A stretch of 64,000 nucleotides of DNA from Actinomycetota bacterium (GTDB lineage: Bacteria; Actinomycetota; CADDZG01; WHSQ01): NCBI GenBank assembly GCA_009377815.1, contig WHTI01000001.1:20357-84356 (forward strand), read 5' to 3'. Positions 21,050 to 46,061 of this stretch are shown piece after piece. How positions within the stretch are numbered: position 1 is the stretch's first letter; each line of letters begins with the position of its first letter. The notes beneath the pieces were generated by a model, which was given only the letters and a program-made list of their open reading frames with translations, did no database searches and was not told the origin of the DNA. The position numbers and the translations under genes are program-made.

Positions 21050-21298
21050 CGCCGTACCTCCCTCTCCACTGAGGGCGACGCCGCCCTGGCCATTCACAAA
21101 GTAAAGGGAGATCGGCTTCTTGACCAGTGCGCTATCGCGTAAGTCTCGTCCACATCCAGAGCGCCCCTGCGCGGGGAGCGCAAGGCGCGAGGAGTCGGGC
21201 GTACCGGGGAGTACGTACGCGACGAGCAACGCTGCGATCGTCGATGCAGGGGCGCTCTGGGGGCACGGTGATTTGCGCGATGGCGCACTACGGCGAGA

Positions 21299-23863
21299 TC
21301 AGCGGGTGAAGCGGAAGCGGAGGACCGATCGAGCGTTGGTAGGGCTCTGTTGCTCCCACAGGATGCGGTAGCGACCCGGCCTCAATGACTCCTTCAGGGC
21401 GAAGTCGGAGCGCCGGTTCAGACGATCGGTGGCGACGGTGGTCCACCCGCCCTTGACCTTCCTTTGCAGGAGTACTTCGGTACGTGTGTGCCTCGGGCGG
21501 ACCGAGCCCTTGAGGATCCGCGTTTCCGCGTTGTAGCGGCCGAGGCTGATCTTCGCCTCCACCTCGACGAGCGCGCCGTCCGACTCGCCATCGCTGCAGT
21601 TGCCCTTCGACTCGACCGCCGCGCTGTAGACGGTGCTCTCGGTTCCTTTCGCCGACGCCTTCCAGTTGTCGGAGCCGTCGGGGACGACCGTGTCGATCTT
21701 GGAGAGGCGGTCGTCCATCGTCCGGCGGTACAGCTCGACGACCACCGGAGCGGTGCAGCCGGCCTCCCTCGTCACCGTGCCCGAGAGCACGACCTTGCCG
21801 CGGTAGGGGACCAGGGTATCGGACGCATCGATGGTGACCGCCGCCCCGTCGCCCGGATCGGCCGGCTGCGGCGTATCGTCGGTGGTGGGGCTGGGACTCG
21901 GGGTGGGGGTGGGGGTGGGGGTCGGCTCCGGCTCCGGCTCGTTCGAGAACCCGGGGAGTTCGGGGACGTCGAGCATCGAGGGCGTGGCTATCAGAGGTGC
22001 CTTGGCGGTGTTGGCGTAGCGGTCTCCTACCCGGGCAGGTGCGGCCATCGGCACCAGCCATTCGGTCTGCTGGCCGTCGATCTCGGTGATCGGCTTCGGC
22101 AACATCAGGTTGTCGGTGTCGTTCGTAACGAAGTAGTGGATCCCGTGGCTGCCGAACGCTCCTTGTTTGTAAAGGCCCTCGTAGCCCTCGGGGGCCTGAC
22201 CGAAGCAGGGTCGGTCGACGTAGTCGAGCTCTCGCTCGGTCATCCACGCGTAGCTCTCGCCCGGCCACTCGCGACGCGACGGGTCGTCACCGGTGCCGTC
22301 GTCAAGACAGGCGTCGTCCCGGTAATAGGGAGTGACGAGCGGATTCTCGAGCGCGTTCGCGTTCTTGAGTTCGAACATGTAGATGAGGGACCCGCCGTCG
22401 CCGCGTCCGGCAACCTGTTCCCAGTTGAGGAACGCCAGCGGGCGAGTGAAGGTCGGGTCGGGGGCATCGAAGAACGCCGGCTCACCGAAGATGTCGTCGA
22501 TGTTGCCGACGGCCTCGTCATTGACGCCATCGATCGGCACACCCTGCTCGAGGGCCTCGTTGTAGTAGGTCCCAACCTTGTCGTGGTTGTAGTCCCACGA
22601 GGTGTAGAGCCCATCCGGCGGGATCGGGTGCACACGGACGTGGAAGCGGTAAGTGATCGTGTCCCGGTAGAACGTCTCGATCTTGGTGACGTTGGTTCCG
22701 GAGTCGGCTCCCCAGACCTCACGGATCGCGCGGACCGGTCCCGCGAGCTCTCCGAGCAGCGAGGAGTTGGCCTCCCAGTTGACCTGCTCGTCTTCGAAAC
22801 CGACCAGCGAGATCGTTGAGTCGGGACTCTGCTGGAACGCTCGTCCCTTCCAACGATCGAGGAGGTCGGGACCGTAGACGCCGGGCTGCCCCGGTTTGGC
22901 GACGCGCTTGGAGCGCACCATCCATCGTCCGGTTGCCCTCCATCGATACGCGCTCGTGCTAACGGTGACACCGTCGCGGGGGAAGCGGTCGGTGGACTCG
23001 CGCACCGATCCGTCGGGGTCGCACACCGTGCCGGAGAGGTTTGGCCCGTAGCCGGTGTTCGACGAACCGAGCTTCTCGGGGTCGTCGTCGGCGAACGAAC
23101 CGCGATCGATGTAGTCGTCGGCGTTCGCGTCGCGCTCGTAATCGACGTACCCGTTGCTCGAGTCGAACCTGGAACCGCTCTCGGTCGTGAACAGATAGAT
23201 GTGGCTCGAAGTTCCCGGTGCGAAGGGGTCGTTCAGGGTGATGTCGTACGGATCGCTGAGGGCGCCGGGCGGCGGGACCGCATCGGCGGGAGCTGCGGCG
23301 CCCGCGTCGGAGGCCATGAACGCGATCTCGTCGTCGTCATCGAGGGTCGGAACCGGATCGGCCATCGCCTCGGCCCCCTCAGGGTACGCAGCGAAGCAGT
23401 CTCCGGCGGTCTTCTTCCACGATTCGCTGTCCCACGCGTAGGTGAGCTCTTCGTCGGTGCCGGAGTAGAAGCCGAAGTCGGAGTTGGCGTTGGCGAGGAA
23501 GTAGGGGAACCGTTCGTCGACCTGGACCGGAACCTCGATGTAGCGCTTCCCGTTCCAGCGGTACGCGGCGATCGTCGCCGGATCGACGCCGGTGCGGGGA
23601 TCGGGCGGGACGGTCAGGGTTCCGTTGTGGGCGTCCCGGACGTTATCGCCGTACTCGGTCCCCGAGGGGTAGGGGTTGGCCAGGCCGGTCGCCGCGAGGC
23701 GTGACCACCCCGGCACCCGGTCCCCGGTCAGGACGACGGGTTCGACATCCCGAACCGGGGCGTCGAGCACCGACAGTTGCGCACCGCTCGTGGCGGGAAG
23801 GGCGACCAGGAGCGCGGTCACCATCGCTCCCACGCATAGAACGGCTGAGGCTCGGCGAGTCAT
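21299..23863 (-). CDS. large secreted hypothetical protein with PT-linker and C-terminal beta-sandwich-like domains
   Basis: Signal peptide 'LCVGAMVTALLVALPATSGAQ'. About 620 aa of unrecognised domain, then the linker EPEPEPTPTPTPTPSPSPTT. The roughly 200-aa tail contains 'VLLQRKVKGGWTTV...PGRYRILW' (CarboxypepD_reg/Ig-like pattern). Confidence 0.7.
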   Translation of the reverse strand: MTRRASAVLCVGAMVTALLVALPATSGAQLSVLDAPVRDVEPVVLTGDRVPGWSRLAATGLANPYPSGTEYGDNVRDAHNGTLTVPPDPRTGVDPATIAAYRWNGKRYIEVPVQVDERFPYFLANANSDFGFYSGTDEELTYAWDSESWKKTAGDCFAAYPEGAEAMADPVPTLDDDDEIAFMASDAGAAAPADAVPPPGALSDPYDITLNDPFAPGTSSHIYLFTTESGSRFDSSNGYVDYERDANADDYIDRGSFADDDPEKLGSSNTGYGPNLSGTVCDPDGSVRESTDRFPRDGVTVSTSAYRWRATGRWMVRSKRVAKPGQPGVYGPDLLDRWKGRAFQQSPDSTISLVGFEDEQVNWEANSSLLGELAGPVRAIREVWGADSGTNVTKIETFYRDTITYRFHVRVHPIPPDGLYTSWDYNHDKVGTYYNEALEQGVPIDGVNDEAVGNIDDIFGEPAFFDAPDPTFTRPLAFLNWEQVAGRGDGGSLIYMFELKNANALENPLVTPYYRDDACLDDGTGDDPSRREWPGESYAWMTERELDYVDRPCFGQAPEGYEGLYKQGAFGSHGIHYFVTNDTDNLMLPKPITEIDGQQTEWLVPMAAPARVGDRYANTAKAPLIATPSMLDVPELPGFSNEPEPEPTPTPTPTPSPSPTTDDTPQPADPGDGAAVTIDASDTLVPYRGKVVLSGTVTREAGCTAPVVVELYRRTMDDRLSKIDTVVPDGSDNWKASAKGTESTVYSAAVESKGNCSDGESDGALVEVEAKISLGRYNAETRILKGSVRPRHTRTEVLLQRKVKGGWTTVATDRLNRRSDFALKESLRPGRYRILWEQQSPTNARSVLRFRFTR
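21881..21940 (-). repeat. low-complexity Pro/Thr/Glu/Ser-linker coding repeat
   Basis: The plus strand reads (GGGGT)n/(GGCTCC)n, encoding EPEPEPTPTPTPTPSPSP on the minus strand. Confidence 0.7.
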
Positions 23864-24058
23864 TCCTTTAGGTCCTTGGCTGGTTGGGATCGTCCTGTCC
23901 CGAGATTTCGCCCCGGTCGGAGAGGTTCCTGCCGGCCCCCCTGGATTCCGCCGCCCGGCTTCAAAGATGCCTCGATTACGTAGAGGCCCGGCCCCCTTTT
24001 GTGCCGATTCTTATCCATAGTGAGTTGCATGCCGTCTTCAGATCTCAGGAGGTTCACC

Positions 24059-24439
24059 GTGGTTCTTGGTCGCAGGTTGGTAGTGGTGCTAGCGAGCACC
24101 TCGATGGTGCTGGCGTCGTTCGGCGTCGCGTCGGCCCATGAGGAGGTGGCCGACTCGAAGGTGACGATCGGGGAATCCAAGAAGGGCGTCAAAGGCAAAG
24201 TGACGTCTGAAGCTGCGTTCTGCAGCGCCCTGCGGCAGGTGAAGGTCTTCAAGGTCAAGTCAGGGAAGGACAAGAAGGTGGGCTCGGCGACGACCAACCT
24301 GAAGGGCAAGTGGTCCGTGAAGGTCCCGAACGCCAGCGGCAAGTACTACGTCAAGGTGGCGCGCACCCTGGATGATCATGACCCCTACTCCCACGTTCAT
24401 GAGTGCACCGCCGCAAAGTCCGACAAGCTGAAGATCTAG
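24059..24439 (+). CDS. small secreted protein, paralog A (single beta-sandwich; predicted N-terminal His after signal cleavage)
   Basis: Start set to GTG 24059, 6 nt after a perfect AGGAGG (24047-24052). Signal 'LVVVLASTSMVLASFGVASA|HEEV'. Clearly similar to ORF 29828..30196: GKYYVKVAR vs GRYFVKVAR, and YSHVHEC vs YGHRHNC. Confidence 0.65.
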   Translation: MVLGRRLVVVLASTSMVLASFGVASAHEEVADSKVTIGESKKGVKGKVTSEAAFCSALRQVKVFKVKSGKDKKVGSATTNLKGKWSVKVPNASGKYYVKVARTLDDHDPYSHVHECTAAKSDKLKI

Positions 24440-24466
24440 CTCCGGAGGAGCGAACCAAGGGCCGCC

Positions 24467-26311
24467 GTGAAGATCCTGAGAAGCGTCGTCGTTGCCCTGT
24501 TCGTGATCCTCGTCCTCGACGCCTGTTACACCGCGGCTCGCCTCACTCTTGAGCTGAGGTGGACCGCGTCCGCGCTAGACAAGGCGGCGACCAAACTCGA
24601 AGCCGCCAAGTTCAACAAGGCCGAGCGCGATTTCGACAGCGCGCGGACGCATGCCCGGGCTGCGGAGCGGATGACCGGACACCTCAGCTTCAATCTCTTG
24701 AGCCACCTCCCCGGGATCGGCTCGGATGTCGATGCCATCGATTCGTTGGTGGCGGCGGTCAACCACTCGGCCGATGCCGGTGTCACGGCTCTCGACGGGA
24801 TCCAGGCGATGGATCCGCACGATGAGGGCCTCGCCGGTGCCCTGTACGAAGACGGACGGGTCGACCTTGCCGCCTTCGACATGGCCCGCACCTACGTCGA
24901 TGACGCGGTTGGTCTCCTTGGAGCTGCTCGCAGAGAGGTCGCCATGGCTCCGGAGGGCAACATCCCCCCGGTGTCGCACGCGGTGGAAAAAGCAGGGGAC
25001 CGGCTCGATTCAGCGCTTGATTCCGCTCACGAAGGGGTGCGTGTCATGGAGCAGCTGCCGCGACTGCTCGGAGCGGATCGACCGCGTCACTACTTCCTCG
25101 CGTTCCAGTCGCCCAGTGAAGCGCGTGGCGGCGGGGGCCTGATCGGGTTCTACGGGATCCTCGAGGCCGACGACGGCAAGGTCGAGCTCGGACATCTGGA
25201 GCCGATCGGCGAACTGACGAACTCCAGGAAGGAGACTGCGGACGCTCCAGGATGGTTCCGCGACCTCTACGGTGGCGTCGGCGCGGTTGACGAGTGGCGA
25301 CAAGTGAACGCGTCGATCAACTTCCCAGTCGTTTCCGAAGTGATCCTCGATCGCTACCAACGCAGCACCGGGGAACAACTCGACGGCGTGATCGCGATGG
25401 ATCCCCTCGCCCTGGGTGATCTGACTCAGGGCACCGGACCGATACAGGCCGGGGCCCTCGGCAAGATCGGTCCCCGGAACGTGCGGGAGGTGCTGCTGCG
25501 TGACGTCTATCTCGACTACCAGGGCCGGCCGATCGCACAGAACCGGGCACTCAAGATCCTCGTCGATCACTTCTGGGACCGGCTGGGAGGCGGCCGGGTG
25601 GACGTCACAGGGCTCTCGGATGGCTTGAGCGATGCTGCCTCCGGTGGCCACCTCAAGATCTTCGCCGGCGACCCGGCCATCGAGGCCGCACTCGTCGATC
25701 TCGGAATCGATGGCGGGTACACCGACGAGCACTCCAACGTCCAATCCGTCTTCAACAACAACTGGTCGGCGAACAAGATCGACTACTACCTGCACCGCAC
25801 GATCGAAACCCACATCGTGCTCGATGCAAAGGGGGAGGCCACGGTGACGACAACCGCGTTGCTCTCCAACTTCGCGCCACCCGACCAGGGTGGACTGATG
25901 AGTGGGTCGCACATCGAGGGCCAGGCCGACGGGACCAACACGATGTCGTTGTTCTTCCTCATGCCGGAGGGGTCCCGCGATCCCGTGGTCACCATCGACG
26001 GCCGGCGTGATGCAGCCTTCCGCGGGCACGACGACGTCTCTCCGGTGGCGTGGACGATCGTGCGGATCCCGGCGGGGGAGGCCAGCACCGTCACCCTCAC
26101 CTACAAACTCGCCGGTGGGATCAGGGGCGGGCACTTCCCGTTCACGCTGTTCCCCCAGACGACCGTGAATCCTGACTCGTTCGAACTCACCGCCGAAGGC
26201 CCGAGCGGGCGGTTGCTCGAGATCTCGGAGATCGACGACGAGGACGGTTCCTCCGGGCAGTTGATCCGCGGCGTTCTCGATCGCGAGCGACGCTTCCGGA
26301 TCGAGCTCTAG
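24467..26311 (+). CDS. DUF4012-like membrane-anchored protein, paralog A
   Basis: N-terminal TM helix. 'YFLAFQSPSEARGGGGLIGFYGIL' and 'LDGVIAMDPLALGDL' match my recollection of the DUF4012 signature. Paralog of 30331..32172. Confidence 0.8.
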   Translation: MKILRSVVVALFVILVLDACYTAARLTLELRWTASALDKAATKLEAAKFNKAERDFDSARTHARAAERMTGHLSFNLLSHLPGIGSDVDAIDSLVAAVNHSADAGVTALDGIQAMDPHDEGLAGALYEDGRVDLAAFDMARTYVDDAVGLLGAARREVAMAPEGNIPPVSHAVEKAGDRLDSALDSAHEGVRVMEQLPRLLGADRPRHYFLAFQSPSEARGGGGLIGFYGILEADDGKVELGHLEPIGELTNSRKETADAPGWFRDLYGGVGAVDEWRQVNASINFPVVSEVILDRYQRSTGEQLDGVIAMDPLALGDLTQGTGPIQAGALGKIGPRNVREVLLRDVYLDYQGRPIAQNRALKILVDHFWDRLGGGRVDVTGLSDGLSDAASGGHLKIFAGDPAIEAALVDLGIDGGYTDEHSNVQSVFNNNWSANKIDYYLHRTIETHIVLDAKGEATVTTTALLSNFAPPDQGGLMSGSHIEGQADGTNTMSLFFLMPEGSRDPVVTIDGRRDAAFRGHDDVSPVAWTIVRIPAGEASTVTLTYKLAGGIRGGHFPFTLFPQTTVNPDSFELTAEGPSGRLLEISEIDDEDGSSGQLIRGVLDRERRFRIEL

Positions 26312-26320
26312 ACGCGACGA

Positions 26321-26341
26321 AGCCCGGCGATGAGCCGGGCT
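26321..26341. terminator. stem-loop between convergent genes
   Basis: Perfect 8-bp stem AGCCCGGC/GCCGGGCT with a 5-nt loop, 10 nt after the DUF4012-A stop. No U-tract. Confidence 0.35.
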
Positions 26342-26356
26342 CCTGGTGGTTCGGTA

Positions 26357-26593
26357 TTACCTGAGGAGGCCGTTGGTCCCCATGAGGAAGTCTTCATCGT
26401 CGCCGCGCGCCGAGCCGTCGCCGATCCCCTCGATCCCGTTGAGGTACTCGAAGTCGGCACCCCCCCGGCCCTGAGCCGACGACTTGATCCGGGCCATCTC
26501 GAGCTCCTTGAGCCACACGCGACCCTTGGCGGTCAGCCCGAAACCCGAATCCCCGAGCAGCCCTGCGGCCTTGAGCTCGTCCATCGTGGTCAT
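26357..26593 (-). CDS. small hypothetical protein (78 aa, acidic C-terminus)
   Basis: ATG 26593 is preceded by GAGGAG. G/C-rich third positions in this frame. No motif recognised. Confidence 0.45.
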   Translation of the reverse strand: MTTMDELKAAGLLGDSGFGLTAKGRVWLKELEMARIKSSAQGRGGADFEYLNGIEGIGDGSARGDDEDFLMGTNGLLR

Positions 26594-26878
26594 GTTCTTC
26601 ACTCCTCTTAAGAGATCTGTGGTGTTCCCCAGCGTTCGTTGGACCACCACGGTAGCGAACGGTTACTTGACCGTCAGGTCCGAGACCGACATCAGACAAA
26701 CACCTGGGATTTCGTTCCATACAGGGTCCTATGCATGGGAATGAACCAGGTCCAATAGGTAGAAAAGCGTATCTATTTCTCCGAAAACCCTATTGAAAGG
26801 GACCCATAAGACCTAGATGCTGGGGACATCCACCAAAGATCTAGTTGATGCCCACTCGGGGGCTTCGAAGGGAGAAAC

Positions 26879-29779
26879 ATGAACATTAGATCGCCAAAAC
26901 AGTTCTTCGCGCCGGGGCGGACACGGTCTCTGGGACTCCTAACCGCGGCGCTTTTGATCGCCGGACTGGTCCCAGCCATGTTTAGCCCCGCCAACGCGGC
27001 CGGGGTGACTCACTACGTATCGCCGGCAACCATCGGAAGTGCTCCCGGGACCGACTGTGCGACCCCCGGATACAACACCATCCAGGCCGCGATCAACGCA
27101 GCCACGGCGGGCGACATCGTCCAGGTATGTGCCGGGACCTACGGCGAAGATGTCGTCGTGAACAAGGCCGGCCTTCAGCTCCTCGGCGCCGGTATCGACA
27201 ACTCCACCATCGAGGGGCCGATCGGCGGCGGTGGCGCGACGGTTCAGATCAGTGCATCCGGCGTAGTCGTGGACGGGTTCAGCATCACGCGCACCGGCAA
27301 CACTCTGGCGGACTGGAACAACACCGAGTTGAACTTTGCCGGCGTCGCGGTTCAGGGCCTGACCGTAAACGTGGAGCTGCGGAACTCCAGGCTGTACGGG
27401 AACCGGACCGCGATCGACATCAACAACAGCAATGGGAACTCGATCTTCAACAGCATCCTCGAGAACAACCACACCGGCATGATCTTCCGAAACCAAACGG
27501 ACAACACGACGCTTACTGAGAACAGCATCGTCAACAACCGGACGGTGGGGATTCTGTTTCTGGATGCAAGTAGCGGCACGAACTCTCCTGTTCAGACGGC
27601 AGCGAACTCCACGTTCAGTAACAACAACATCTCTGGCAACTGGTACGGCGAGATCGTGGACCGCCAGTCGGGTGGCTCGCTGCCGGCTGCGGGGACCAAC
27701 CTCAAGGACTTCAGCGGCAACTGGTACGGGACAACGTCCCCGGTGGTCAGCACCGCCAACAGTGCCGAGCCGGGCTATGCAGCACTGATTCCCGTGAGTG
27801 CAGGTGGAACGGCAACTGACCCGGGGGGGCAGCCCGACATCGCGGGGCCTGCCTCGGCGAACTTCGACTACACACCGCTCTTGGGGTCCGGTACAGACAC
27901 TGCCGGGACCACCGGCTTCCAGGGGGACTTTTCCTCGCTGTATGTCGATGCTGCTTCGGCACAAACCGGATCTGCGGAGCCGATTCAGGAGAGCGAAGAT
28001 GTCGCGCTTCCCGGCGGCACCGTGAATCTCAAGCCGGGCACACACACCGAAGGCAACCTCGTTATTGACAAAAGCCTGACAGTGGTTGGTGTCGGCGCTG
28101 CTGAGATCCACCCGGCGGCTTCGTTCCCCAATAACAACAACGCCGGCAGTGCATGGATTCTCGTTAACCAAGGAGTCGATTTCGATCTCAGTAACGTCTC
28201 CCTCGTCGGCACCGGGTTCAGCGTCCGGCAAGGTCTTCGGTCTCACGGCAACACGACTGTGGACAGCGTCGACTTCGACTCTCTCGGGAGCCCTGGCTAC
28301 GGTGGCTTCGCGGTCATGGGTTTCGGGGGGACCGTTCCTGGCGGATTGGGGTCAGATTCACACTCTGGCGGTCTGTCCGCCAGCCACCTCACGATCACCA
28401 ACAGCACCTTCACCGACTACGGACGGGTCGGCGTGCTGATCAAGGGCACGGGATCGACCGCCACGATCTCGAACAACGTGTTTGTCGGTAAGGGGCTCGG
28501 GAACCACCTCGATTACGCGGTGGAAGTCGGGGCCGGCGGTACGGCGGACGTCTCCGATAACTCGATCAGTAACAACAGAGGCACTGCTCTAAGTGATGGC
28601 TCGACCTCTGCTGGGATCCTCGTTACGGACTATTTCGGCGGAGGGACCTCGGCGACAGTTACGGACAACGATCTCTTCGACAACTCGACCGGGATCTACC
28701 TCGGCTATCTCATCTCCGACGAGTCGAGCCTGACCGCGCACCTCAACAGGTTCGATGACAACGACAGCGCGGCGCTCAACGCCAGCGACGAGAGCGTCTT
28801 CGTCGCCGATAACAACTGGTGGGATGATCCTTCGGGACCGACCCATCTTCTGAACGCCGGCGGTATCGGGCAGCTGATCGAAGGAGACGTGGCCTTCACA
28901 CCGTGGTGTGTGAACCCAGATTGCACGACCCCGCCTCCTCCTCCGACGCCGACTCCGACACCGACGCCGACCGATCCGGGTGGTGGCGACATCGTTACGC
29001 CTCCAGGGGCGGATCCGCTTCCGGAGGGAGAGTGCAACCCTGCCACCGAGATCTGCGGCTCGACCGGTGACGATGATGCCGATGTCAACAACGGAACCGT
29101 TATCACGGGACCGGGCGAGGACCACATCGATATCGACACCGATGGGGACACCGAGCAGGTCACGGTCGACGCGGGGCCCGACAACGACACCGTCGTCCTC
29201 AATGTCGGTGAGGGTACGCCCGAAGGTACCGTCATCGAGGTCGATGGTGGCGACGGTGACGACACGATCATCGTCAACCTTCCCGAAGGCACGACCAACG
29301 TCGAGATCATCATCATCGGCGGGGACGGCGACGACACGATCACCTATCCGAACCTCGAGGGCCTCGATGGAGTGACGATCGTCACGACCACCGGCGACGG
29401 TGACGATGTTGTGAACGTTCCGCCGTCACCGGGCACGGTCCGGATCATCATCCGGCTCGGAGATGGTGCCGATGCGGTCGTCGTCAACACCGGAGTCGGT
29501 GCAGCTCCCAAGGGAGCGTCCGGCGCGGCGGTTACCGGCGGCTTCGACATCTACGGTGGAGCGGGGCGGGAACTGATCGAGGGCTCGACCGGCGCCGACT
29601 TCTTGTCCGGAGGCGGGGGCAGAGACTCCATCTTCGGCAAGCGTGGCGATGACGTCCTCAAGGGCGGCAAAGCCGTGGACCGTCTGTTCGGCGGCTTCGG
29701 CGACGACACGATCTACGGTGGTAAGGGGAAAGACGTTGCGAAGGGTGGCCCTGGAAACGATCAGCTGATCGGCATCTAG
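26879..29779 (+). CDS. secreted right-handed parallel beta-helix protein with PT-linker and C-terminal RTX-type Ca-binding repeats
   Basis: Signal peptide. 'GYNTIQAAINAATAGDIVQVCAGTYGEDVVV' plus many Asn-rich 'NNxI/NNxG' turns give a pectate-lyase/NosD-type beta-helix, apparently in two blocks. Linker PPPPPTPTPTPTPT, then Asp/Gly/Thr-rich repeats. The C-terminus reads 'GGGGRDSIFGKRGDDVLKGGKAVDRLFGGFGDDTIYGGKGKDVAKGGPGNDQLIG'. Confidence 0.8.
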   Translation: MNIRSPKQFFAPGRTRSLGLLTAALLIAGLVPAMFSPANAAGVTHYVSPATIGSAPGTDCATPGYNTIQAAINAATAGDIVQVCAGTYGEDVVVNKAGLQLLGAGIDNSTIEGPIGGGGATVQISASGVVVDGFSITRTGNTLADWNNTELNFAGVAVQGLTVNVELRNSRLYGNRTAIDINNSNGNSIFNSILENNHTGMIFRNQTDNTTLTENSIVNNRTVGILFLDASSGTNSPVQTAANSTFSNNNISGNWYGEIVDRQSGGSLPAAGTNLKDFSGNWYGTTSPVVSTANSAEPGYAALIPVSAGGTATDPGGQPDIAGPASANFDYTPLLGSGTDTAGTTGFQGDFSSLYVDAASAQTGSAEPIQESEDVALPGGTVNLKPGTHTEGNLVIDKSLTVVGVGAAEIHPAASFPNNNNAGSAWILVNQGVDFDLSNVSLVGTGFSVRQGLRSHGNTTVDSVDFDSLGSPGYGGFAVMGFGGTVPGGLGSDSHSGGLSASHLTITNSTFTDYGRVGVLIKGTGSTATISNNVFVGKGLGNHLDYAVEVGAGGTADVSDNSISNNRGTALSDGSTSAGILVTDYFGGGTSATVTDNDLFDNSTGIYLGYLISDESSLTAHLNRFDDNDSAALNASDESVFVADNNWWDDPSGPTHLLNAGGIGQLIEGDVAFTPWCVNPDCTTPPPPPTPTPTPTPTDPGGGDIVTPPGADPLPEGECNPATEICGSTGDDDADVNNGTVITGPGEDHIDIDTDGDTEQVTVDAGPDNDTVVLNVGEGTPEGTVIEVDGGDGDDTIIVNLPEGTTNVEIIIIGGDGDDTITYPNLEGLDGVTIVTTTGDGDDVVNVPPSPGTVRIIIRLGDGADAVVVNTGVGAAPKGASGAAVTGGFDIYGGAGRELIEGSTGADFLSGGGGRDSIFGKRGDDVLKGGKAVDRLFGGFGDDTIYGGKGKDVAKGGPGNDQLIGI
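28931..28972 (+). repeat. Pro/Thr linker coding repeat
   Basis: (CCN ACN)n encoding PPPPPTPTPTPTPT. Confidence 0.7.
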
Positions 29780-29796
29780 GACCGCGCGAAAGAGAG

Positions 29797-29833
29797 GACC
29801 CGGCCCTCGAAGGGGGGTCGGGTCTTTCTATTT
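29797..29833. terminator. bidirectional intrinsic terminator between convergent genes
   Basis: 10-bp stem GACCCGGCCC/GGGTCGGGTC (one G-U pair) with an 8-nt loop, followed by TTTCTATTT on the plus strand and a CU-rich run on the minus strand. Confidence 0.5.
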
Positions 29834-30196
29834 CGCCTTGATCGTGCTGGAGCGAGTGCCCTTGCAGTTGTGGCGGTGCCCGTAGGGGGTGTTGAGTTTG
29901 CGGGCGACCTTCACGAAGTAGCGTCCGCGAGCGTTCTCCTTGACGATCCGGTAGCGGCCCTTCTTGTTGGTCACGTCGGAGCCGACCGCCTTGGACGGCT
30001 TCTTCTTGAAGTCCCGCATAAGGGTGACCTTCCGTCCCCGCTCGCAGCGACCTCGATCGGATGAGACCCTGCCCTTGAAGATGTCTCCGTTGTTGTTCAG
30101 CGTCACGGACGCATCTGCGGCGAACTCATGGCCGGTGGCCATCGGGCCGGGGAGCGCGGCGAGTGCCAGCGCCATGATCGGAAGGATGATCTTCAT
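29828..30196 (-). CDS. small secreted protein, paralog B (predicted N-terminal His after signal cleavage)
   Basis: Start set to ATG 30196, with GAGG 9 nt upstream. Signal 'MKIILPIMALALAALPGPMATG|HEFA'. Paralog of 24059..24439. Confidence 0.65.
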   Translation of the reverse strand: MKIILPIMALALAALPGPMATGHEFAADASVTLNNNGDIFKGRVSSDRGRCERGRKVTLMRDFKKKPSKAVGSDVTNKKGRYRIVKENARGRYFVKVARKLNTPYGHRHNCKGTRSSTIKAK

Positions 30197-30330
30197 CTTC
30201 TGAAGCCTCACGGGGTCGACCTCCCAGCCTCGAGCGGGTGCTGGTCAGCAATTCGACCTCGACGTCCCGAGTCCTGCTTGGTTCGGGAAGTTCGACGTGG
30301 TTTGCGCCGATCCCTGATTCAATCCATGGG

Positions 30331-32172
30331 GTGTTCAAGCATGGGTCGAGGAGGCTCCGGTGGGCGGCGCTCGTGGTCGCCCTCATCGTCGTCGCGCTGG
30401 TGGTCGATGGCGTCTACGTCACGCTCCGCCTCAGGTCGTCCCAGCAGGCCGCGCTCGAGGAACTGGAGGAGGCCCGGGCTGCCTTCGATGCCGAAGACTT
30501 CACCTCGACCGCGGCGAGCCTCTCGAAGGCGAGGGACGCGACCAGCGCGCTCGTGAGTCTGACCGGGCATCCCTCGTTCAGGATCGCCGCACGTCTCCCC
30601 TTCATCGGAGGCGACGCCAGGGCGATCGAGTCCCTCGGTCGTGCCGCCGACCTGTCGGTCCGGGGTGGGGTGCTGCTGGTCGACGCCCTCGATGCGGCGT
30701 CGGACGGGGACCCCGGCTCCCTGGCCGAGTCCGTCTACCGGGACGGCACGGTCCAGTTCGCAGCGATCGATCGCGCCGCTCCGCTGGTGGAGGAGGCGGC
30801 CGCCCTCTTGGCTAGGGCCGAGAGCATCCTTGAGGAGGCTCCCGATCCGAAACTCGGGTCGGTGGAGGAGGCGCTGGAGGATGCCCGTGCGGAGGTCTCC
30901 TCGGCGTCGGTATCGACCCGGCGGGTCGCCGCGCTGATGGATGCCCTTCCATCGCTCTTCGGGCGCGACGGCGTGCGTCGTTACTTCCTCGCCTTCCAAT
31001 CTCCGAGCGAAGCACGCGGGTCCGGAGGGTTCCCCGGCGTCTTCGGGATCCTGAAGGCGGAGGAGGGGCGTTTGAGCCTCGGCGCGGTCCGACCGATCGG
31101 CTCTCTCGGACTGCTGAACTCTCCGGCTTCGGTGCCGGGCTGGTATCGCGATCTCTACAGGGACGTCGGAGCGTTGCGGGATCCTCGCCAGGCCGGTTAC
31201 TCGCCGAACTTCCCCGAGGTCGCGCGCGTGTGGCTCGAGGTCTACGAAGAGAGCACCGGCAACTCCCTCGACGGGGTGATGGCGATGGACCCGATCGTGC
31301 TGTCCGAGATGACCCGCGGTACCGGACCGCTCACCGTCGACGGGTTCGCCGGATCGATCGGGCCCGACAACGCGGTTGAGGCCCTCCTCTACGACAGCTA
31401 CGTCGAGTTCCCCGATCCTGACGATCAGAACCTCTACCTCGCAGCCCTCGTCGATGCCCTATGGCAACGTCTCGGAGCCGGGGATGTGGAGGTCGGACCC
31501 CTCGCCGAGGGGCTCGGCCGGGCCACGAGAGGGCAACATCTGAAGCTGTATTCGGTCGATGACGACGTGCAGGCTGCACTTGCGGACCTCGGGGTCGACG
31601 GCGACTACGCGGCGGTGGGGCCGAACGTGCAGCTCGTTTACGGCAACAACGCCGCCGCCAACAAGGTGGATTACTTCCTCACCCGCACTATCGACACGAT
31701 CGTCGAGCTCGAGTCCGACGGCGACGCGCGCGTAACAACGCGCATCGAGCTGACCAACAACGTTCCGGCCGATGCTCCGCCCTCGATCCTGTTCGGTCCC
31801 GGGGTCGAGGGGGACCGGGCGGGCATCAACGGCATGGTCCTCTATCTCTTGATGCCCGAAGGGAGCCGGCTGACGGGCTCGAGGGTTGACGGCGACCCAA
31901 GCGAGCCATTAGCGGGCCGGGAGGGCGATCACCCGGTCGCTTACGACCTCGTCGAGATCCTCCCCTCGGAAACCTCGATCGTGGAGTTCACCTACCTGGT
32001 GCCGTCGGCGTGGGATGAGAGCGACGGGACCTTCGCCTTCGACCTCTTCCCCCAGGCGACCGCGGTTCCCGACCGGTTCTCCCTGGAGGTCCGTCCGCCC
32101 GCCGGACCGGCGCTGGTCCGCAGCGGCATCCTGGACCGGACGATCTCGGTCCGGGCAACGTTCGGGAACTGA
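30331..32172 (+). CDS. DUF4012-like membrane-anchored protein, paralog B
   Basis: The ORF is open from 30238. GTG 30331 is chosen because it lies just before the TM helix 'RLRWAALVVALIVVALVVDGV', as in paralog A. 'YFLAFQSPSEARGSGGFPGVFGIL' and 'LDGVMAMDPIVLSEM'. Confidence 0.8.
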   Translation: MFKHGSRRLRWAALVVALIVVALVVDGVYVTLRLRSSQQAALEELEEARAAFDAEDFTSTAASLSKARDATSALVSLTGHPSFRIAARLPFIGGDARAIESLGRAADLSVRGGVLLVDALDAASDGDPGSLAESVYRDGTVQFAAIDRAAPLVEEAAALLARAESILEEAPDPKLGSVEEALEDARAEVSSASVSTRRVAALMDALPSLFGRDGVRRYFLAFQSPSEARGSGGFPGVFGILKAEEGRLSLGAVRPIGSLGLLNSPASVPGWYRDLYRDVGALRDPRQAGYSPNFPEVARVWLEVYEESTGNSLDGVMAMDPIVLSEMTRGTGPLTVDGFAGSIGPDNAVEALLYDSYVEFPDPDDQNLYLAALVDALWQRLGAGDVEVGPLAEGLGRATRGQHLKLYSVDDDVQAALADLGVDGDYAAVGPNVQLVYGNNAAANKVDYFLTRTIDTIVELESDGDARVTTRIELTNNVPADAPPSILFGPGVEGDRAGINGMVLYLLMPEGSRLTGSRVDGDPSEPLAGREGDHPVAYDLVEILPSETSIVEFTYLVPSAWDESDGTFAFDLFPQATAVPDRFSLEVRPPAGPALVRSGILDRTISVRATFGN

Positions 32173-32271: not shown

Positions 32272-33117
32272 ATGCGGGCAGATCGTGCGGGCCTCGGTTC
32301 TTGGTATGGGGAGATCCTCACCGAGAACCGCCTTGGGCATGCTCCGGCCCGAGTCCCGACCCCCTCCTACCGGGTCCTCGGCACCTCGATCGCCGCCGTC
32401 GATCCCGCCCGGGCCGTCGCTCACGTCGAGGGTATGGTCCGGTCCCGCAGCCGGGGGACCATCGCCTTCTGCACCGCCTCTACCGTCCTCGCCGCACGCC
32501 GGGATCCCGATCTCCGCCGGGCGCTGACGAACTCCTCGCTGGTCAATCCGGACGGGATGCCGCTCGTGTGGCTCGGCCGCCGAGCTGGGGTCGAGCTCGA
32601 TCGTGTCTACGGGCCCGATTTCATGCTGGATCTGTTCGCGGCGACCGGATCATCGCTCCGTCACTACTTCTACGGCGGAACCCCGGGTGTGGTCGACGCG
32701 CTGGTCGAGCAATTGAGCGAGCGTTTCCCCGAGATCCAGATCGTCGGGTCCCACACTCCGGAGTTCGGATTGACCGGACGTGATGTCATCGAGGCGGACG
32801 TTGCCCGCATCAACGCCGCGGCGCCCGACATCGTTTGGATCGGTCTCGGACATCCCAAGCAAGAACTCTGGATGGAAACCCACGTGGCGAAGCTGGATGC
32901 CTCGGTCCTCGCGGGGGTCGGGGCTGCGTTCGACTACCTCTCCGGCACCAAGAAGGAAGCGCCCGAGTGGATGAAGCGCTCGGGACTCCAATGGATGCAC
33001 CGGCTGGGATCGGAACCGCGCCGTCTGTGGAAGCGCTACCTCGTGGGCAACTCGACGTTCGTGGCGTTGCTCGTCGCCGAATGGGTCCGCACGGGACGGA
33101 TGGCCCATGTGGACTGA
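32272..33117 (+). CDS. WecB/TagA/CpsF-family glycosyltransferase (ManNAc-transferase type)
   Basis: 'VNPDGMPLVWLGRRAG', 'GHPKQELWM' and 'PEWMKRSGLQWMHRL' are family signatures. 11-nt overlap with the next gene. Confidence 0.85.
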   Translation: MRADRAGLGSWYGEILTENRLGHAPARVPTPSYRVLGTSIAAVDPARAVAHVEGMVRSRSRGTIAFCTASTVLAARRDPDLRRALTNSSLVNPDGMPLVWLGRRAGVELDRVYGPDFMLDLFAATGSSLRHYFYGGTPGVVDALVEQLSERFPEIQIVGSHTPEFGLTGRDVIEADVARINAAAPDIVWIGLGHPKQELWMETHVAKLDASVLAGVGAAFDYLSGTKKEAPEWMKRSGLQWMHRLGSEPRRLWKRYLVGNSTFVALLVAEWVRTGRMAHVD

Positions 33118-34219
33118 CGTCGGAGCGCTGCTACTCATAGCCACGGTGGCGTTCGGGACCACCGCTGCTCTCACGCCGGTGGTGCGATGGGTTGCTCTCC
33201 GAGGCGGCATGTCGGACGATCCCAGCCGACGGAGGTTGCATCAGGTCACGACGCCAACGATGGGTGGGATCGCGATCCTCGCCGGTTGGCTCCTCGCCAC
33301 CGCGATCTCCGGCCGGGGAGGCGATCTCTGGGCGCTGCTCGTCTGCGCCGGGGCTCTCGGCGTCATGGGATTCATCGACGACCGCTTCCATCTCGACGAG
33401 CACCTGCGGCTGGTTCTCCAGGTTCTCATCGCCGGCTTCGCGTGGGGGCATGGCTTCGGCCTCGAACTCTTCGGAACTCCCGGACTCAACCTGATCGTGT
33501 CGCTCTTGTGGTTGGTTGGGATCACCAACGCGTTCAACTTCATGGACAACATGGATGGCCTGGCATCCGGAGCCGGAGCCGTGGCCGCTACGACCCTGGC
33601 CGCGCTGGGTCTGTTCGCCGGAGACATCGGGATCGCGTTCGTCGCCATCGCACTCGCCGGTGCGCTGGCCGGTTTCCTGCCGCACAACTTCCACCCGGCG
33701 CGCATCTTCATGGGCGATACCGGCAGCCTCCCGCTGGGCTTCGCACTCGCGGCGCTCGGGGCGCGCCTATCGACCGACGGGCTCCACCCGTTCGTGGCGA
33801 CCGCCATCCCGGTGGCGGTGCTCGGGATCTTCGTTTTCGACACCTCGCTGATGGCGATCGGAAGGGTTATCCGTCGAGAACCGGTGATCGGCGCCCGGAT
33901 GGACCACACCTCGCATCGACTGTTGGGCACGGGTCTTCCGGTGCGGGCCGTGGCGTTGCGGTTGTATCTGGTTTCGGTTCTCTACTCGACGATCGGCCTG
34001 TCGCTGGCGCTCCTGCCGGCCCAGTGGGCGGTCGCCGTCTGCACGGCAACGTTCGTGGGTAGCGCCCAGGTACTGCTCCGCCTGCTACCGCTTCCGGCCC
34101 TGGTGCGCGAGGGCGATGCTCTGGTTCCGGTGGCCGAACCCACGCCCCGGATGCCACGTTTCCGCCTGTCCGACGCCATCGAGCCGATCACCCTGTCCGA
34201 GGACGCCCTGATCGACTAG
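33107..34219 (+). CDS. MraY/WecA-family polyprenyl-phosphate HexNAc-1-phosphate transferase
   Basis: 'TPTMGGIAILAG', 'NAFNFMDNMDGLASG' and 'FMGDTGSLPLGF'. About 10 TM helices. Confidence 0.9.
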   Translation: MWTDVGALLLIATVAFGTTAALTPVVRWVALRGGMSDDPSRRRLHQVTTPTMGGIAILAGWLLATAISGRGGDLWALLVCAGALGVMGFIDDRFHLDEHLRLVLQVLIAGFAWGHGFGLELFGTPGLNLIVSLLWLVGITNAFNFMDNMDGLASGAGAVAATTLAALGLFAGDIGIAFVAIALAGALAGFLPHNFHPARIFMGDTGSLPLGFALAALGARLSTDGLHPFVATAIPVAVLGIFVFDTSLMAIGRVIRREPVIGARMDHTSHRLLGTGLPVRAVALRLYLVSVLYSTIGLSLALLPAQWAVAVCTATFVGSAQVLLRLLPLPALVREGDALVPVAEPTPRMPRFRLSDAIEPITLSEDALID

Positions 34220-35737: not shown

Positions 35738-35861
35738 TGCTTCAGGCTCTCAGCCACTGGTGATCCGTCCGGACCGAAAAAAGTTCAGAAATCTTCGACG
35801 ATCGCCTCGAAATGGCCCGTTTCGGGCGTCTCGTGTCACACCCCCTCGTCAGAATGAAGGG

Positions 35862-37055: not shown

Positions 37056-37284
37056 TAGATCGCGCCGGTTTCCAGACAAGCGGAGCGAGCCCCCCGAGGC
37101 CGCGCCCGGAACCGATCCGCAAGGCCCGGAACGAAGCGGGCCCCCGGAGCGAACCCTCAAAACGCTCTGGGTGAGCGGAGCGGGGGCCGCTTGCTACCGG
37201 AGCCGGCCCCAGGTTCCGGCGAGCCACGACCCAGGGAGGCGGAGCGGAAGGGATTGGGCCCCCGCCGCCGTATCTCCCCTTCAA

Positions 37285-45997: not shown

Positions 45998-46061
45998 ATC
46001 AGGGAGGTACGGCCTGTACTGCTGAATCCCTCCCTCGGAGGGACCGGACATTCGGGATGAA

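What the first reader, a model, noticed from the sequence alone, without database searches (positions are those of the whole stretch)
23999..32172. Duplicated two-gene module (small secreted protein + DUF4012-like protein) bracketing a giant beta-helix/RTX exoprotein, next to a glycan locus
Two copies of the same gene pair lie 5 kb apart.

- Module A: 24059-24439 (+) and 24467-26311 (+).
- Module B: 29828-30196 (-) and 30331-32172 (+).

The large proteins share long near-identical blocks. Examples are RHYFLAFQSPSEARGGGGLIGFYGILEADDGKVELG vs RRYFLAFQSPSEARGSGGFPGVFGILKAEEGRLSLG, and LDGVIAMDPLALGDLTQGTGPI vs LDGVMAMDPIVLSEMTRGTGPL. Both have one N-terminal TM helix. The small proteins are also mutual paralogs.

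Between the modules sit only a 78-aa ORF and the 966-aa exoprotein. The TagA/WecA-initiated glycan locus starts directly downstream. To my knowledge DUF4012 has no assigned function. A conserved partnership with a dedicated small secreted protein, duplicated around a surface protein, suggests an uncharacterised envelope-assembly or glycan-processing machine.
Basis: partly seen in the sequence, partly recalled or inferred. Interest (0 to 1): 0.75.

Follow-up and report, generated by a model that had tools for sequence, protein, structure and literature searches.

The report
Paired LCP-like wall enzyme, metal-binding partner
Two diverged copies of a gene pair sit at the head of a cell-wall sugar-polymer locus: a small secreted protein with a predicted three-histidine metal site, and a membrane-anchored DUF4012 protein whose core fold resembles the enzymes that attach such polymers to the wall, which gives this uncharacterised family a first testable function.

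Summary
There are two DUF4012 genes (42% identical) and two small signal-peptide genes (35% identical), with no DNA-level repeat, so this is not an assembly artefact.

- **Pairing:** it is lineage-specific. 16 of 25 loci in one unclassified Actinomycetota clade have it, and 0 of 54 distant DUF4012 loci do. Partners co-diverge (r=0.80, Mantel p≈2e-4).
- **Exoprotein:** the giant beta-helix/RTX protein is variable cargo. It is absent between the modules in relatives L001, L008 and L009.

New findings:
- **DUF4012 fold:** the core, folded alone (pLDDT 91), matches only LCP (LytR-CpsA-Psr) glycopolymer transferases in the PDB. The top 20 hits are all LCP, at TM 0.31-0.48.
- **Supporting context:** the domain layout parallels LCP. 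The genes abut TagA and WecA linkage-unit genes. GT4-DUF4012 fusions exist. No canonical LCP gene lies in the window.
- **Caveat:** sequence profiles show no LCP homology (hhalign probability about 0.1%), so the link is fold-level only.
- **Small protein:** it belongs to a large family with no Pfam model (427 clusters at E≤1e-10). An A-x-A signal-peptidase site is followed directly by His, and an H-x-H-x-C motif co-varies with that His (76 both, 24 neither, 6 discordant). This looks like a histidine-brace-type metal site.

Best reading: an LCP-like glycopolymer transferase with a metal-binding accessory protein.

The parts
24059..24439 (+). Small secreted protein A (126 aa). Signal peptide ending ASA, then His as the predicted first mature residue. 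Invariant Cys55 and Cys116, and a Y-x-H-x-H-x-C motif.
   Evidence: ORF. Paralogy to B. Family and motif. Only sub-threshold CarboxypepD_reg-like similarity in relatives.
24467..26311 (+). DUF4012-A (614 aa). N-terminal TM helix, helical domain (to about residue 200), alpha/beta core (about 205-420) and C-terminal beta-sandwich (424-614). It starts 27 bp after small-A.
   Evidence: Pfam PF13196, E 2.6e-29. AF2 pLDDT 91, pTM 0.87. Core-only model matches LCP proteins.
26357..26650 (-). Conserved small ORF (97 aa from the GTG; 78 aa from the ATG at 26593). No signal peptide and no family hit. It lies between the modules in all close relatives.
   Evidence: no hits. Conserved in L001, L003, L004, L007, L008 and L009.
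26879..29779 (+). 966-aa secreted beta-helix (NosD-like) protein with C-terminal RTX repeats. It is variable cargo and not a conserved part of the module.
   Evidence: Pfam Beta_helix, NosD and HemolysinCabind. Absent between the modules in L001, L008 and L009; a related gene follows orf97 in L007.
29828..30196 (-). Small secreted protein B (122 aa). Signal peptide ending ATG, then His, with the same Cys pair and H-x-H-x-C motif. It is divergent from DUF4012-B, with 134 bp between the two starts.
30331..32172 (+). DUF4012-B (613 aa from the GTG at 30331; the ORF is open from 30238).
   Evidence: Pfam PF13196, E 1e-30. 42% identical to A. Start supported by the L001 orthologue.
32272..33117 (+). 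WecG/TagA-family glycosyltransferase, the second linkage-unit enzyme.
   Evidence: PF03808, E 4.7e-56. Conserved directly after DUF4012-B in L001, L008 and L009.
33107..34219 (+). WecA/TagO-type polyprenyl-phosphate sugar-1-phosphate transferase (GT4 family), the initiating enzyme.
   Evidence: PF00953, E 1.2e-34. The same domain is fused to DUF4012 in P0105 and P0121.

Best explanation
Each module encodes a membrane-anchored, outward-facing DUF4012 enzyme. Its conserved alpha/beta core has an LCP-like (LytR-CpsA-Psr-like) fold.

Proposed mechanism (inferred):
1. The adjacent WecA/TagA-initiated pathway builds a polyprenyl-pyrophosphate-linked glycopolymer, and the ABC transporter exports it.
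2. DUF4012 takes this polymer and transfers it, with its phosphate, onto a cell-envelope acceptor such as peptidoglycan. This is the last step of wall-glycopolymer assembly, and no canonical LCP gene is present in this locus to perform it.

In this Actinomycetota lineage each DUF4012 gene has a dedicated small secreted beta-sandwich partner. After signal-peptide cleavage its N-terminal His, together with a C-terminal H-x-H, is predicted to form a histidine-brace-type metal site. The partner's exact role (metal delivery, redox chemistry on the glycan, or adaptor) is not resolved. The two modules are an old duplication of the whole pair, probably serving two polymers or two acceptors.

Shown: family membership, paralogy, synteny, co-divergence, fold resemblance, motif covariation.
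Inferred: catalytic activity, substrate, metal binding, physical interaction.
For: - **Fold:** the core-only AF2 model (pLDDT 91.2, pTM 0.89) gives PDB Foldseek hits whose top 20 are all LCP proteins: 3pe5, 3okz, 3owq, Cps2A (2xxp, 2xxq, 3tfl, 3tep, 3tel, 4de8), LytR 8qty, TagV 6uf3, LcpA 6uex, TagU 6uf6 and others. Probability is 0.63-1.00 (most at least 0.92), TMq 0.31-0.48, best E 2e-4. The next family, the Hsp70 NBD, has probability of 0.14 or less.
- **Architecture:** TM anchor, accessory domain, extracellular core and C-terminal domain match the LCP layout described in PMC7831098.
- **Context:** DUF4012-B sits directly before TagA and WecA. GT4(WecA-like)-DUF4012 fusion proteins P0105 and P0121 lie in glycan loci. 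DUF4012 lies next to the priming glycosyltransferase and wzz in the B. longum EPS cluster, and next to Wzz or BY-kinase genes in L089, L016 and L023.
- **Missing ligase:** the 64-kb window has a complete ABC-transporter glycopolymer pathway but no LCP ORF. No LCP ORF was detected within 10 kb of any DUF4012 gene in 91 sources, using a profile built from only four Firmicute LCP sequences.
- **Conserved residues:** invariant or near-invariant polar residues are compatible with Mg/phosphate chemistry: R207, E218, R220, D306, D312, K437, D439.
- **Partner:** adjacent in 16 of 25 clade loci, plus L090. Mirror-tree r=0.80, Mantel p≈2e-4.
- **Metal site:** A-x-A then His in 81 of 106 stand-alone family members. 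N-terminal His and HxH co-occur (76 both, 24 neither, 6 discordant; Fisher p 7e-18). Internal repeats in giant proteins never carry HxHxC (0 of 25).
Against: - No sequence-level link to LCP. hhalign of DUF4012 against a 4-sequence and a 110-sequence LCP alignment gives probability about 0.1%. No PF03816 hit appears in 60 members even at E≤10. No PDB sequence hit.
- TM scores of 0.31-0.48 with rmsd of about 8-9 Å or worse are in the twilight zone.
- I could not superpose active sites. DUF4012 has fewer conserved Arg residues than the LCP arginine cluster.
- About 4 of 10 Pfam-annotated DUF4012 neighbourhoods are not glycan loci (L086, L090, L098, L099).
- The genome may encode LCP enzymes outside the window.
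- The small partner is absent from most DUF4012 lineages, so it cannot be essential to DUF4012 function in general.
- The small protein's structure was not predicted here, and its metal binding is untested.
- The covariation statistic is not corrected for phylogeny.
Confidence: 0.45

Rival explanations
1. DUF4012 is a non-catalytic scaffold or co-polymerase-like auxiliary protein. Its long N-terminal helical domain would organise export or chain-length control together with Wzz/BY-kinase, and the LCP resemblance would be a generic alpha/beta sandwich similarity.
For: - Long helical bundle covering residues 1-200.
- Frequent adjacency to Wzz or BY-kinase genes.
- No sequence homology to LCP.
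- TM below 0.5.
Against: - The most conserved part is the alpha/beta core, not the helical domain. It carries invariant charged residues (E218, R220, D312, K437, D439), which is typical of an active site.
- The Foldseek hits are exclusive to one enzyme family.
Confidence: 0.22
2. DUF4012 is an extracytoplasmic enzyme acting on the same lipid-linked glycan, but as a hydrolase or releasing enzyme (pyrophosphatase, glycan trimming, or release of free EPS) and not as a wall ligase.
For: - LCP enzymes themselves show pyrophosphatase activity (PMC7831098).
- DUF4012 occurs in EPS and capsule loci where the polymer may be released.
- The window also has a Wzy_C/O-antigen-ligase-like gene that could do the ligation.
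Against: No positive evidence distinguishes hydrolysis from transfer. The absence of LCP in the locus leaves the ligation step unassigned.
Confidence: 0.15
3. The small protein and DUF4012 are only syntenic in one lineage and are not functionally coupled. The small protein would be an independent metal-handling or surface beta-sandwich protein.
For: - The small family is large (2310 clusters at E≤1e-3) and is mostly found without a demonstrated DUF4012 neighbour.
- 0 of 54 distant DUF4012 loci have it.
- Some clade loci have unrelated small secreted ORFs in the same position.
Against: - The pair is kept through an old duplication, in two different orientations: same strand with a 27-bp gap, and divergent.
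- It recurs in divergent orientation in the metagenome locus L095.
- Co-divergence r=0.80.
- Adjacency is far above chance for a gene present only a few times per genome.
Confidence: 0.15

Closest known systems
LCP (LytR-CpsA-Psr) glycopolymer phosphotransferases (Cps2A, TagT/U/V, S. aureus LcpA, M. tuberculosis Lcp1)
   Same: - N-terminal TM anchor, accessory domain, extracellular alpha/beta core and optional C-terminal domain.
- The core fold is the only significant PDB match.
- Encoded beside WecA/TagO and TagA linkage-unit genes and in capsule or EPS loci.
   Different: - No detectable sequence or profile similarity.
- The conserved motifs differ: FQSPSEARGxGG and LDGVIAMDP, against the LCP Arg/Asp cluster.
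- It has a large helical N-domain and an M1-aminopeptidase/ribophorin-like beta-sandwich C-domain.
- Activity is untested.
Pfam DUF4012 (PF13196), for example BL105A_0406 in the Bifidobacterium longum 105-A EPS cluster
   Same: Both large proteins are bona fide members. The glycan-locus context is the same as in B. longum.
   Different: This lineage has two paralogs, each with a dedicated small secreted partner. No function or fold assignment was found in the searchable literature.
Histidine-brace and N-terminal-His metalloproteins (LPMOs, CopC, YcnI, the PmoB CuB site, DUF4198, 'anglerases')
   Same: - A His directly follows the signal-peptidase site, with further conserved His residues (here H-x-H). 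From my own knowledge, PmoB CuB uses His33, His137 and His139.
- Small secreted beta-sandwich.
- The rationale that an N-terminal His marks a metal site comes from PMC12537917 and PMC10952591.
   Different: - No Pfam hit to CopC, YcnI, LPMO or DUF4198 even at E≤10.
- The H-x-H is followed by a disulfide Cys.
- The partner is a DUF4012 protein, not a copper transporter.
- Metal identity and binding are untested.
CarboxypepD_reg / transthyretin-like beta-sandwich domains
   Same: Weak sub-threshold matches (P0004 E 2e-4, small-B E 0.019). The family profile also picks up repeats of this type in giant proteins.
   Different: The matches are below the Pfam gathering score. The stand-alone secreted form has the Cys pair and the 3-His motif, which the repeats lack (0 of 25).

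Membership tests
Pfam DUF4012 (PF13196) | Match to the family HMM above the gathering score (28 bits) | tested here: met
   103.0 bits for A and 107.6 bits for B, full-length match to the 144-position model. All 60 aligned homologs match.
LCP (LytR-CpsA-Psr, PF03816) | Sequence or profile match to the LCP domain | tested here: not met
   No PF03816 hit in 60 DUF4012 members at E≤10. hhalign probability about 0.1% against a 4-sequence and a 110-sequence LCP alignment.
LCP (LytR-CpsA-Psr, PF03816) | Alpha-beta-alpha core fold with a five-stranded sheet | tested here: inconclusive
   The top 20 Foldseek PDB hits of the core model are all LCP (probability 0.63-1.00, most at least 0.92), but TMq is 0.31-0.48 and rmsd is about 8-9 Å or worse.
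LCP (LytR-CpsA-Psr, PF03816) | N-terminal membrane anchor with an extracytoplasmic catalytic domain, plus an optional accessory and C-terminal domain | tested here: met
   Single N-terminal hydrophobic helix, helical accessory domain, core and beta-sandwich. LCP layout as described in PMC7831098.
LCP (LytR-CpsA-Psr, PF03816) | Hydrophobic polyprenyl tunnel capped by conserved Arg and Asp residues, and Mg-dependent pyrophosphatase or transferase activity | not testable with these tools
DUF4012 has invariant R207, E218, R220, D312, K437 and D439, but their geometry is unknown.
LCP (LytR-CpsA-Psr, PF03816) | Genomic association with polyprenyl-PP-linked glycopolymer pathways | tested here: met
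   Adjacent to TagA and WecA. GT4 fusions exist. 6 of 10 annotated neighbourhoods are glycan loci.
Histidine-brace-type secreted metalloproteins | His as the first residue of the mature protein (directly after the signal-peptidase site) | tested here: met
   A-x-A then His in both window copies and in 81 of 106 stand-alone family members. Position -3 is Ala in 63 of 81 and position -1 is Ala in 72 of 81. Cleavage is predicted, not measured.
Histidine-brace-type secreted metalloproteins | Additional conserved metal-ligand His that co-varies with His1 | tested here: met
   The H-x-H-x-C motif is present together with the N-terminal His in 76, both are absent in 24, and 6 are discordant. 0 of 25 internal repeats carry it.
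Histidine-brace-type secreted metalloproteins | Metal (Cu or Ni) binding, with the three His residues close together in the fold | not tested
CopC (PF04234) / YcnI (DUF1775) / LPMO / DUF4198 | Match to the respective family model | tested here: not met
   No such hits at E≤10. NCBIfam has no hits either.
RTX / beta-helix exoproteins (the 966-aa gene) | Right-handed beta-helix repeats plus GGxGxD nonapeptide repeats | tested here: met
   Beta_helix 67.6 bits, NosD 41.6 bits, HemolysinCabind 54.2 bits. Repeat families D1 and D2.

The most novel reading that the evidence does not exclude
DUF4012 is a previously unrecognised second family of cell-envelope glycopolymer transferases. It would be an LCP-fold relative diverged beyond sequence recognition, or a convergent analogue. 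It is widespread in Actinomycetota, Chloroflexi, Cyanobacteria and CPR bacteria. In one lineage it works as a two-component enzyme with a new histidine-brace (probably copper) protein, which would link metal or redox chemistry to the final step of wall-polymer attachment.
Probability: 0.2. Interest if true: 0.8.

Novelty: new variant of a known kind. Interest (0 to 1): 0.6.

Why it matters
LCP enzymes are the only known ligases that attach teichoic acids, capsules and arabinogalactan to Gram-positive walls, and they are drug targets.

- **DUF4012:** it is a widespread family found in EPS and capsule loci, including those of bifidobacteria, with no assigned function. An LCP-like fold, LCP-like topology and linkage-unit gene context give it a concrete biochemical hypothesis. 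That hypothesis can be tested in cultivable hosts such as Bifidobacterium, Gordonia and Microbacterium.
- **Small partner:** it defines a large family of secreted proteins with no Pfam model and an N-terminal-His plus H-x-H site. This adds a candidate to the growing set of histidine-brace-type metalloproteins, in this case tied to envelope glycan assembly.

Tried and rejected
- **Assembly duplication:** rejected. There is no DNA repeat, the proteins are 35-42% identical, and both copies are conserved in relatives.
- **Universal DUF4012 partner:** rejected. 0 of 54 distant loci have the small protein.
- **Exoprotein as part of the module:** rejected. It is absent in L001, L008 and L009.
- **Whole-protein Foldseek:** it gave only partial hits at TM about 0.2 to beta-sandwich-rich proteins (M1 aminopeptidases, ribophorin I, ITIH1, lpg2210). 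I read these as matches to the C-terminal beta-sandwich, and they are not informative about function.
- **PDB sequence searches:** the DUF4012 and small-protein profiles found nothing significant.
- **Sequence-level LCP homology:** negative three ways.
- **The search for related loci on the small-protein alignments:** failed three times because no conserved stretch was available. I replaced it with a hand-made degenerate DNA motif, which found only 6 metagenome loci.
- **Extended stop-to-stop ORFs in Ilumatobacteraceae loci:** these are not WecA fusions by phmmer.
- **The '142-aa upstream ORF' in L099:** this is only the N-terminus of a frameshifted DUF4012.
- **The JGI name 'FlgD' for P0001:** no family scan supports it.
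Full report
**What is there.** The window is about 64% GC. Its DUF4012-A protein is 100% identical to an NCBI entry from an 'Actinobacteria bacterium' MAG (P0005).
- DUF4012-A (24467-26311) and DUF4012-B (30331-32172) match Pfam PF13196 at 103 and 108 bits against a 28-bit cut-off. They are 42% identical over 579 residues.
- The small proteins (24059-24439 + and 29828-30196 -) are 35% identical (E 2e-23). They match no Pfam or NCBIfam model.
- No DNA repeat connects the modules, so this is an old duplication and not an assembly artefact.
- Module A is co-directional with a 27-bp gap. Module B is divergent, with 134 bp between the two starts.

**Surroundings.** Downstream lies a complete glycopolymer locus:
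- TagA/WecG, a WecA-type GT4 and a 495-aa beta-helix protein;
- two sulfotransferases, five GT1/GT4-type and three GT2 glycosyltransferases, an FkbM methyltransferase and acyltransferases;
- an ABC-2 permease with its ATPase, a Wzy_C-like protein and a Wzz/BY-kinase;
- UDP-glucose dehydrogenase and an epimerase.

No canonical LCP ORF was found anywhere in the 64 kb with an HMM built from four PDB LCP sequences.

**Is the two-gene module conserved?** The DUF4012 homolog search returned 138 proteins at E≤1e-5. A genome scan gave 79 DUF4012 loci. An iterated HMM for the small protein, run over all ORFs of these loci, gave these results:
- A homolog is present in 16 of 25 loci of the close clade, which consists of unclassified Actinomycetota MAGs with DUF4012 at 35% identity or more. 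In 15 of them it lies immediately upstream on the same strand. In L023 a Wzz-like gene separates the two.
- No homolog is present in any of 54 loci from Ilumatobacteraceae and other Acidimicrobiia, Gordonia, Williamsia, Mycobacteriales, Microbacterium, Leifsonia, Bifidobacterium, Coriobacteriia or Patescibacteria.
- Clade loci without it have other small signal-peptide ORFs (L010, L012, L027, L028) or a Wzz-like gene (L016) in that position.
- L090 adds one more same-strand pair.

For the reciprocal test I used a degenerate DNA motif for the small protein. It found six metagenome loci. DUF4012 lies within 1.5 kb in two of them (L093 convergent, L095 divergent like module B). Two are negative (L092, L094) and two are too short to judge.

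Across 17 pairs, identities among small proteins track identities among their DUF4012 partners (Pearson r=0.80, Mantel p≈2e-4). A-type and B-type modules form separate orthologous groups across L003, L007, L008 and L009. The pair is therefore a real, co-inherited and co-duplicated module, but a lineage-specific one.

**Is the exoprotein part of it?** No. In L001, L008 and L009 (65-91% identical orthologues) the gene order is small-A, DUF4012-A, orf97(-), small-B(-), DUF4012-B, TagA, WecA, beta-helix, sulfotransferase. There is no 966-aa gene. L007 has a related beta-helix gene after orf97. The inter-module site is therefore a variable cargo position. The conserved element there is the 78/97-aa orf97, which has no family hit.

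**What DUF4012 looks like.**
- AlphaFold2 with a 60-sequence alignment gives a confident model (pLDDT 91, pTM 0.87). It has an N-terminal TM helix, a helical bundle to about residue 200, an alpha/beta core (about 205-420, which includes the Pfam region) and a beta-sandwich (424-614).
- Whole-model Foldseek returns only partial matches at TM about 0.2 to M1 aminopeptidases, ribophorin I, ITIH1 and lpg2210. I attribute these to the beta-sandwich, although the tool does not report the aligned range.
- Folding the core alone (pLDDT 91.2, pTM 0.89) and searching the PDB gives a clear pattern. The 20 best hits are all LCP proteins: 3pe5, 3okz, 3owq, 3nro, Cps2A in six entries, LytR 8qty, TagV 6uf3 and 3nxh, LcpA 6uex and TagU 6uf6. 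TagT (6mps, 6mpt, 6uf5) and 3qfi appear further down. Probability is 0.63-1.00 (most at least 0.92) and TMq is 0.31-0.48. The next family, the Hsp70 NBD, has probability of 0.14 or less.
- The overall layout of TM anchor, accessory domain, extracellular core and C-terminal domain is the LCP layout described in PMC7831098.

**Limits of the LCP link.** It is fold-level only.
- hhalign of the DUF4012 alignment against LCP alignments (four PDB sequences; 110 homologs) gives probability about 0.1%.
- None of 60 DUF4012 proteins hits PF03816, even at E≤10.
- TM below 0.5 is the twilight zone, and I could not inspect a superposition.
- By eye, the order of secondary-structure elements and the positions of two motifs look parallel. 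The first is a strand followed by a loop carrying acidic and Arg residues (RYLLAFQSPSEARGxGG). The second is a strand ending in Asp followed by a helix (LDGVIAMDPxAL). This is my own impression, not a test.

I therefore do not file DUF4012 as an LCP family member. I propose that it works like one.

**Context supporting that mechanism.**
- DUF4012-B directly precedes TagA and WecA. From established knowledge, TagO/WecA plus TagA make the polyprenyl-PP-GlcNAc-ManNAc linkage unit, which is the donor end that LCP enzymes recognise (TagA and LCP papers listed).
- Two proteins, P0105 and P0121, fuse a WecA-type GT4 domain to a full DUF4012. Both lie in glycan loci.
- In B. longum 105-A, DUF4012 lies between the priming glycosyltransferase and wzz. 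From my own knowledge, this is the position CpsA (an LCP) occupies in streptococcal cps operons.
- 6 of 10 Pfam-annotated neighbourhoods are glycan loci (plus the window). Four are not.
- No canonical LCP gene was detected within 10 kb of any DUF4012 gene sampled. That profile came from only four Firmicute LCP sequences, so divergent actinobacterial LCPs could have been missed.
- Invariant or near-invariant residues (R207, Y209, E218, R220, G223, G224, D306, D312, K437, D439) suit a phosphate/Mg site. They do not reproduce the LCP arginine cluster.

**The small protein.**
- A word-indexed search found only four relatives. A full profile search of 1.84 billion representatives found 2310 clusters at E≤1e-3 and 427 at E≤1e-10. 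Most are stand-alone proteins of 115-140 aa. A few are tandem, and some hits are repeats inside 3000-5000-aa proteins.
- Pfam gives only sub-threshold CarboxypepD_reg and Ig-like hits, which is consistent with a transthyretin-like beta-sandwich.
- In 106 sequences (the stand-alone top hits plus the two window copies), two Cys residues are essentially invariant (C55 in 106 of 106; C116 in 104 of 106).
- 81 of the 106 have His directly after a canonical A-x-A signal-peptidase site.
- 76 of those also have H-x-H two residues before the second Cys. 24 have neither feature and 6 are discordant (Fisher p 7e-18, not corrected for phylogeny).
- Internal repeats of the giant proteins cannot have a free N-terminus, and none carries HxHxC (0 of 25).
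- Both window copies have the full motif.
- An N-terminal His plus further His ligands is the signature of histidine-brace-type sites. Examples are LPMO, CopC, YcnI and DUF4198 (PMC10952591 and PMC12537917). From my own knowledge, the PmoB CuB site uses an N-terminal His plus an H-x-H.
- The family is not CopC, YcnI, LPMO or DUF4198 by Pfam.
- Metal binding and the geometry of the site remain predictions.

**Synthesis.** The most likely reading (confidence about 0.45) is as follows.
- Each module is an LCP-like, membrane-anchored glycopolymer transferase, paired in this lineage with a secreted metal-binding accessory protein.
- The modules sit at the head of a WecA/TagA-initiated, ABC-exported locus for a sulfated and methylated glycopolymer.
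- The two modules plausibly serve two donors or two acceptors.

Rivals:
- a non-catalytic scaffold or co-polymerase role (0.22);
- a hydrolase or releasing enzyme instead of a ligase (0.15);
- synteny without functional coupling of the small protein (0.15).

**Novelty and interest.**
- DUF4012 itself is a known but uncharacterised Pfam family noted in EPS loci.
- I found no statement of an LCP-like fold or of the small partner in the searchable literature.
- The case is best classed as a new variant of a known kind, LCP-type wall-polymer transferases, together with a new candidate family of N-terminal-His metalloproteins.
- I set interest at 0.6. The hypotheses are concrete and testable, but they rest on twilight-zone fold similarity and sequence motifs.

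Noticed in passing
window 24059-24439 (+) and 29828-30196 (-); family members P0125-P0273: The small secreted proteins define a large family with no Pfam or NCBIfam model (2310 clusters at E≤1e-3). An A-x-A signal-peptidase site is followed directly by His. There is an invariant Cys pair and a co-varying H-x-H-x-C motif. This makes the family a candidate histidine-brace-type metalloprotein.
   Followed up: partly
window 26357-26650 (-): A 78/97-aa ORF without a signal peptide and without any family hit is conserved between the two modules in all close relatives (L001, L003, L004, L007, L008, L009). It could be a cytoplasmic regulator of the modules.
   Followed up: partly
window 21299-23863 (-) and 20066-21229 (-): An 854-aa secreted protein with no Pfam hit is conserved divergently upstream of small-A in L001, L003, L007 and L009. 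Its L003/L004 orthologue hits the small-protein HMM only weakly (E 0.0015) in its C-terminal region. A 387-aa secreted protein with no Pfam hit follows it. Both may belong to the same envelope system.
   Followed up: partly
window 35760-37055 (+): A 431-aa protein with a C-terminal HNH endonuclease motif sits between the 495-aa beta-helix gene and the sulfotransferase. It is absent at that position in L001, L008 and L009, so it looks like a mobile insertion in the glycan locus.
   Followed up: partly
L006 10001-12898 (P0105) and L097 8001-10889 (P0121): Single polypeptides fuse a WecA/MraY-type GT4 domain (PF00953) to a full-length DUF4012. Both lie in glycan loci with Wzy_C, ABC exporter, epimerase and glycosyltransferase genes.
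   Followed up: yes
window 34250-35737 (+) and 26879-29779 (+): The locus has two secreted right-handed beta-helix (NosD-like) proteins. The 495-aa one is conserved after WecA in relatives and may be a polymer-modifying or depolymerising enzyme. The 966-aa one carries RTX repeats and is variable.
   Followed up: partly
window 8271-8855 (-): A short ORF of about 194 aa, made almost entirely of RTX-type calcium-binding repeats, matches the C-terminus of the 966-aa protein (E 1e-16).
   Followed up: no
L049, L052, L084, L099, L046, L037: Other actinobacterial lineages also carry two DUF4012 genes within about 10 kb, without the small partner. Duplication of DUF4012 is therefore recurrent.
   Followed up: no
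L010 9534-9800, L027 7822-8205, L012 9230-9610, L028 8956-9360: Close-clade loci that lack the His-motif protein have unrelated small signal-peptide ORFs immediately upstream of DUF4012. Two of them (L010 and L027) are similar to each other, with a 'PPGC-KAK-KYGKKPKKNCP' stretch. The slot for a small secreted partner may be conserved even when the occupant changes.
   Followed up: no
window 36679-38097 (+), 45176-46075 (-), 41391-42281 (+): Two Gal-3-O-sulfotransferase-like genes and an FkbM methyltransferase lie in an ABC-transporter-type glycan locus. This suggests a sulfated, methyl-capped wall polymer, which is unusual for Actinomycetota.
   Followed up: no
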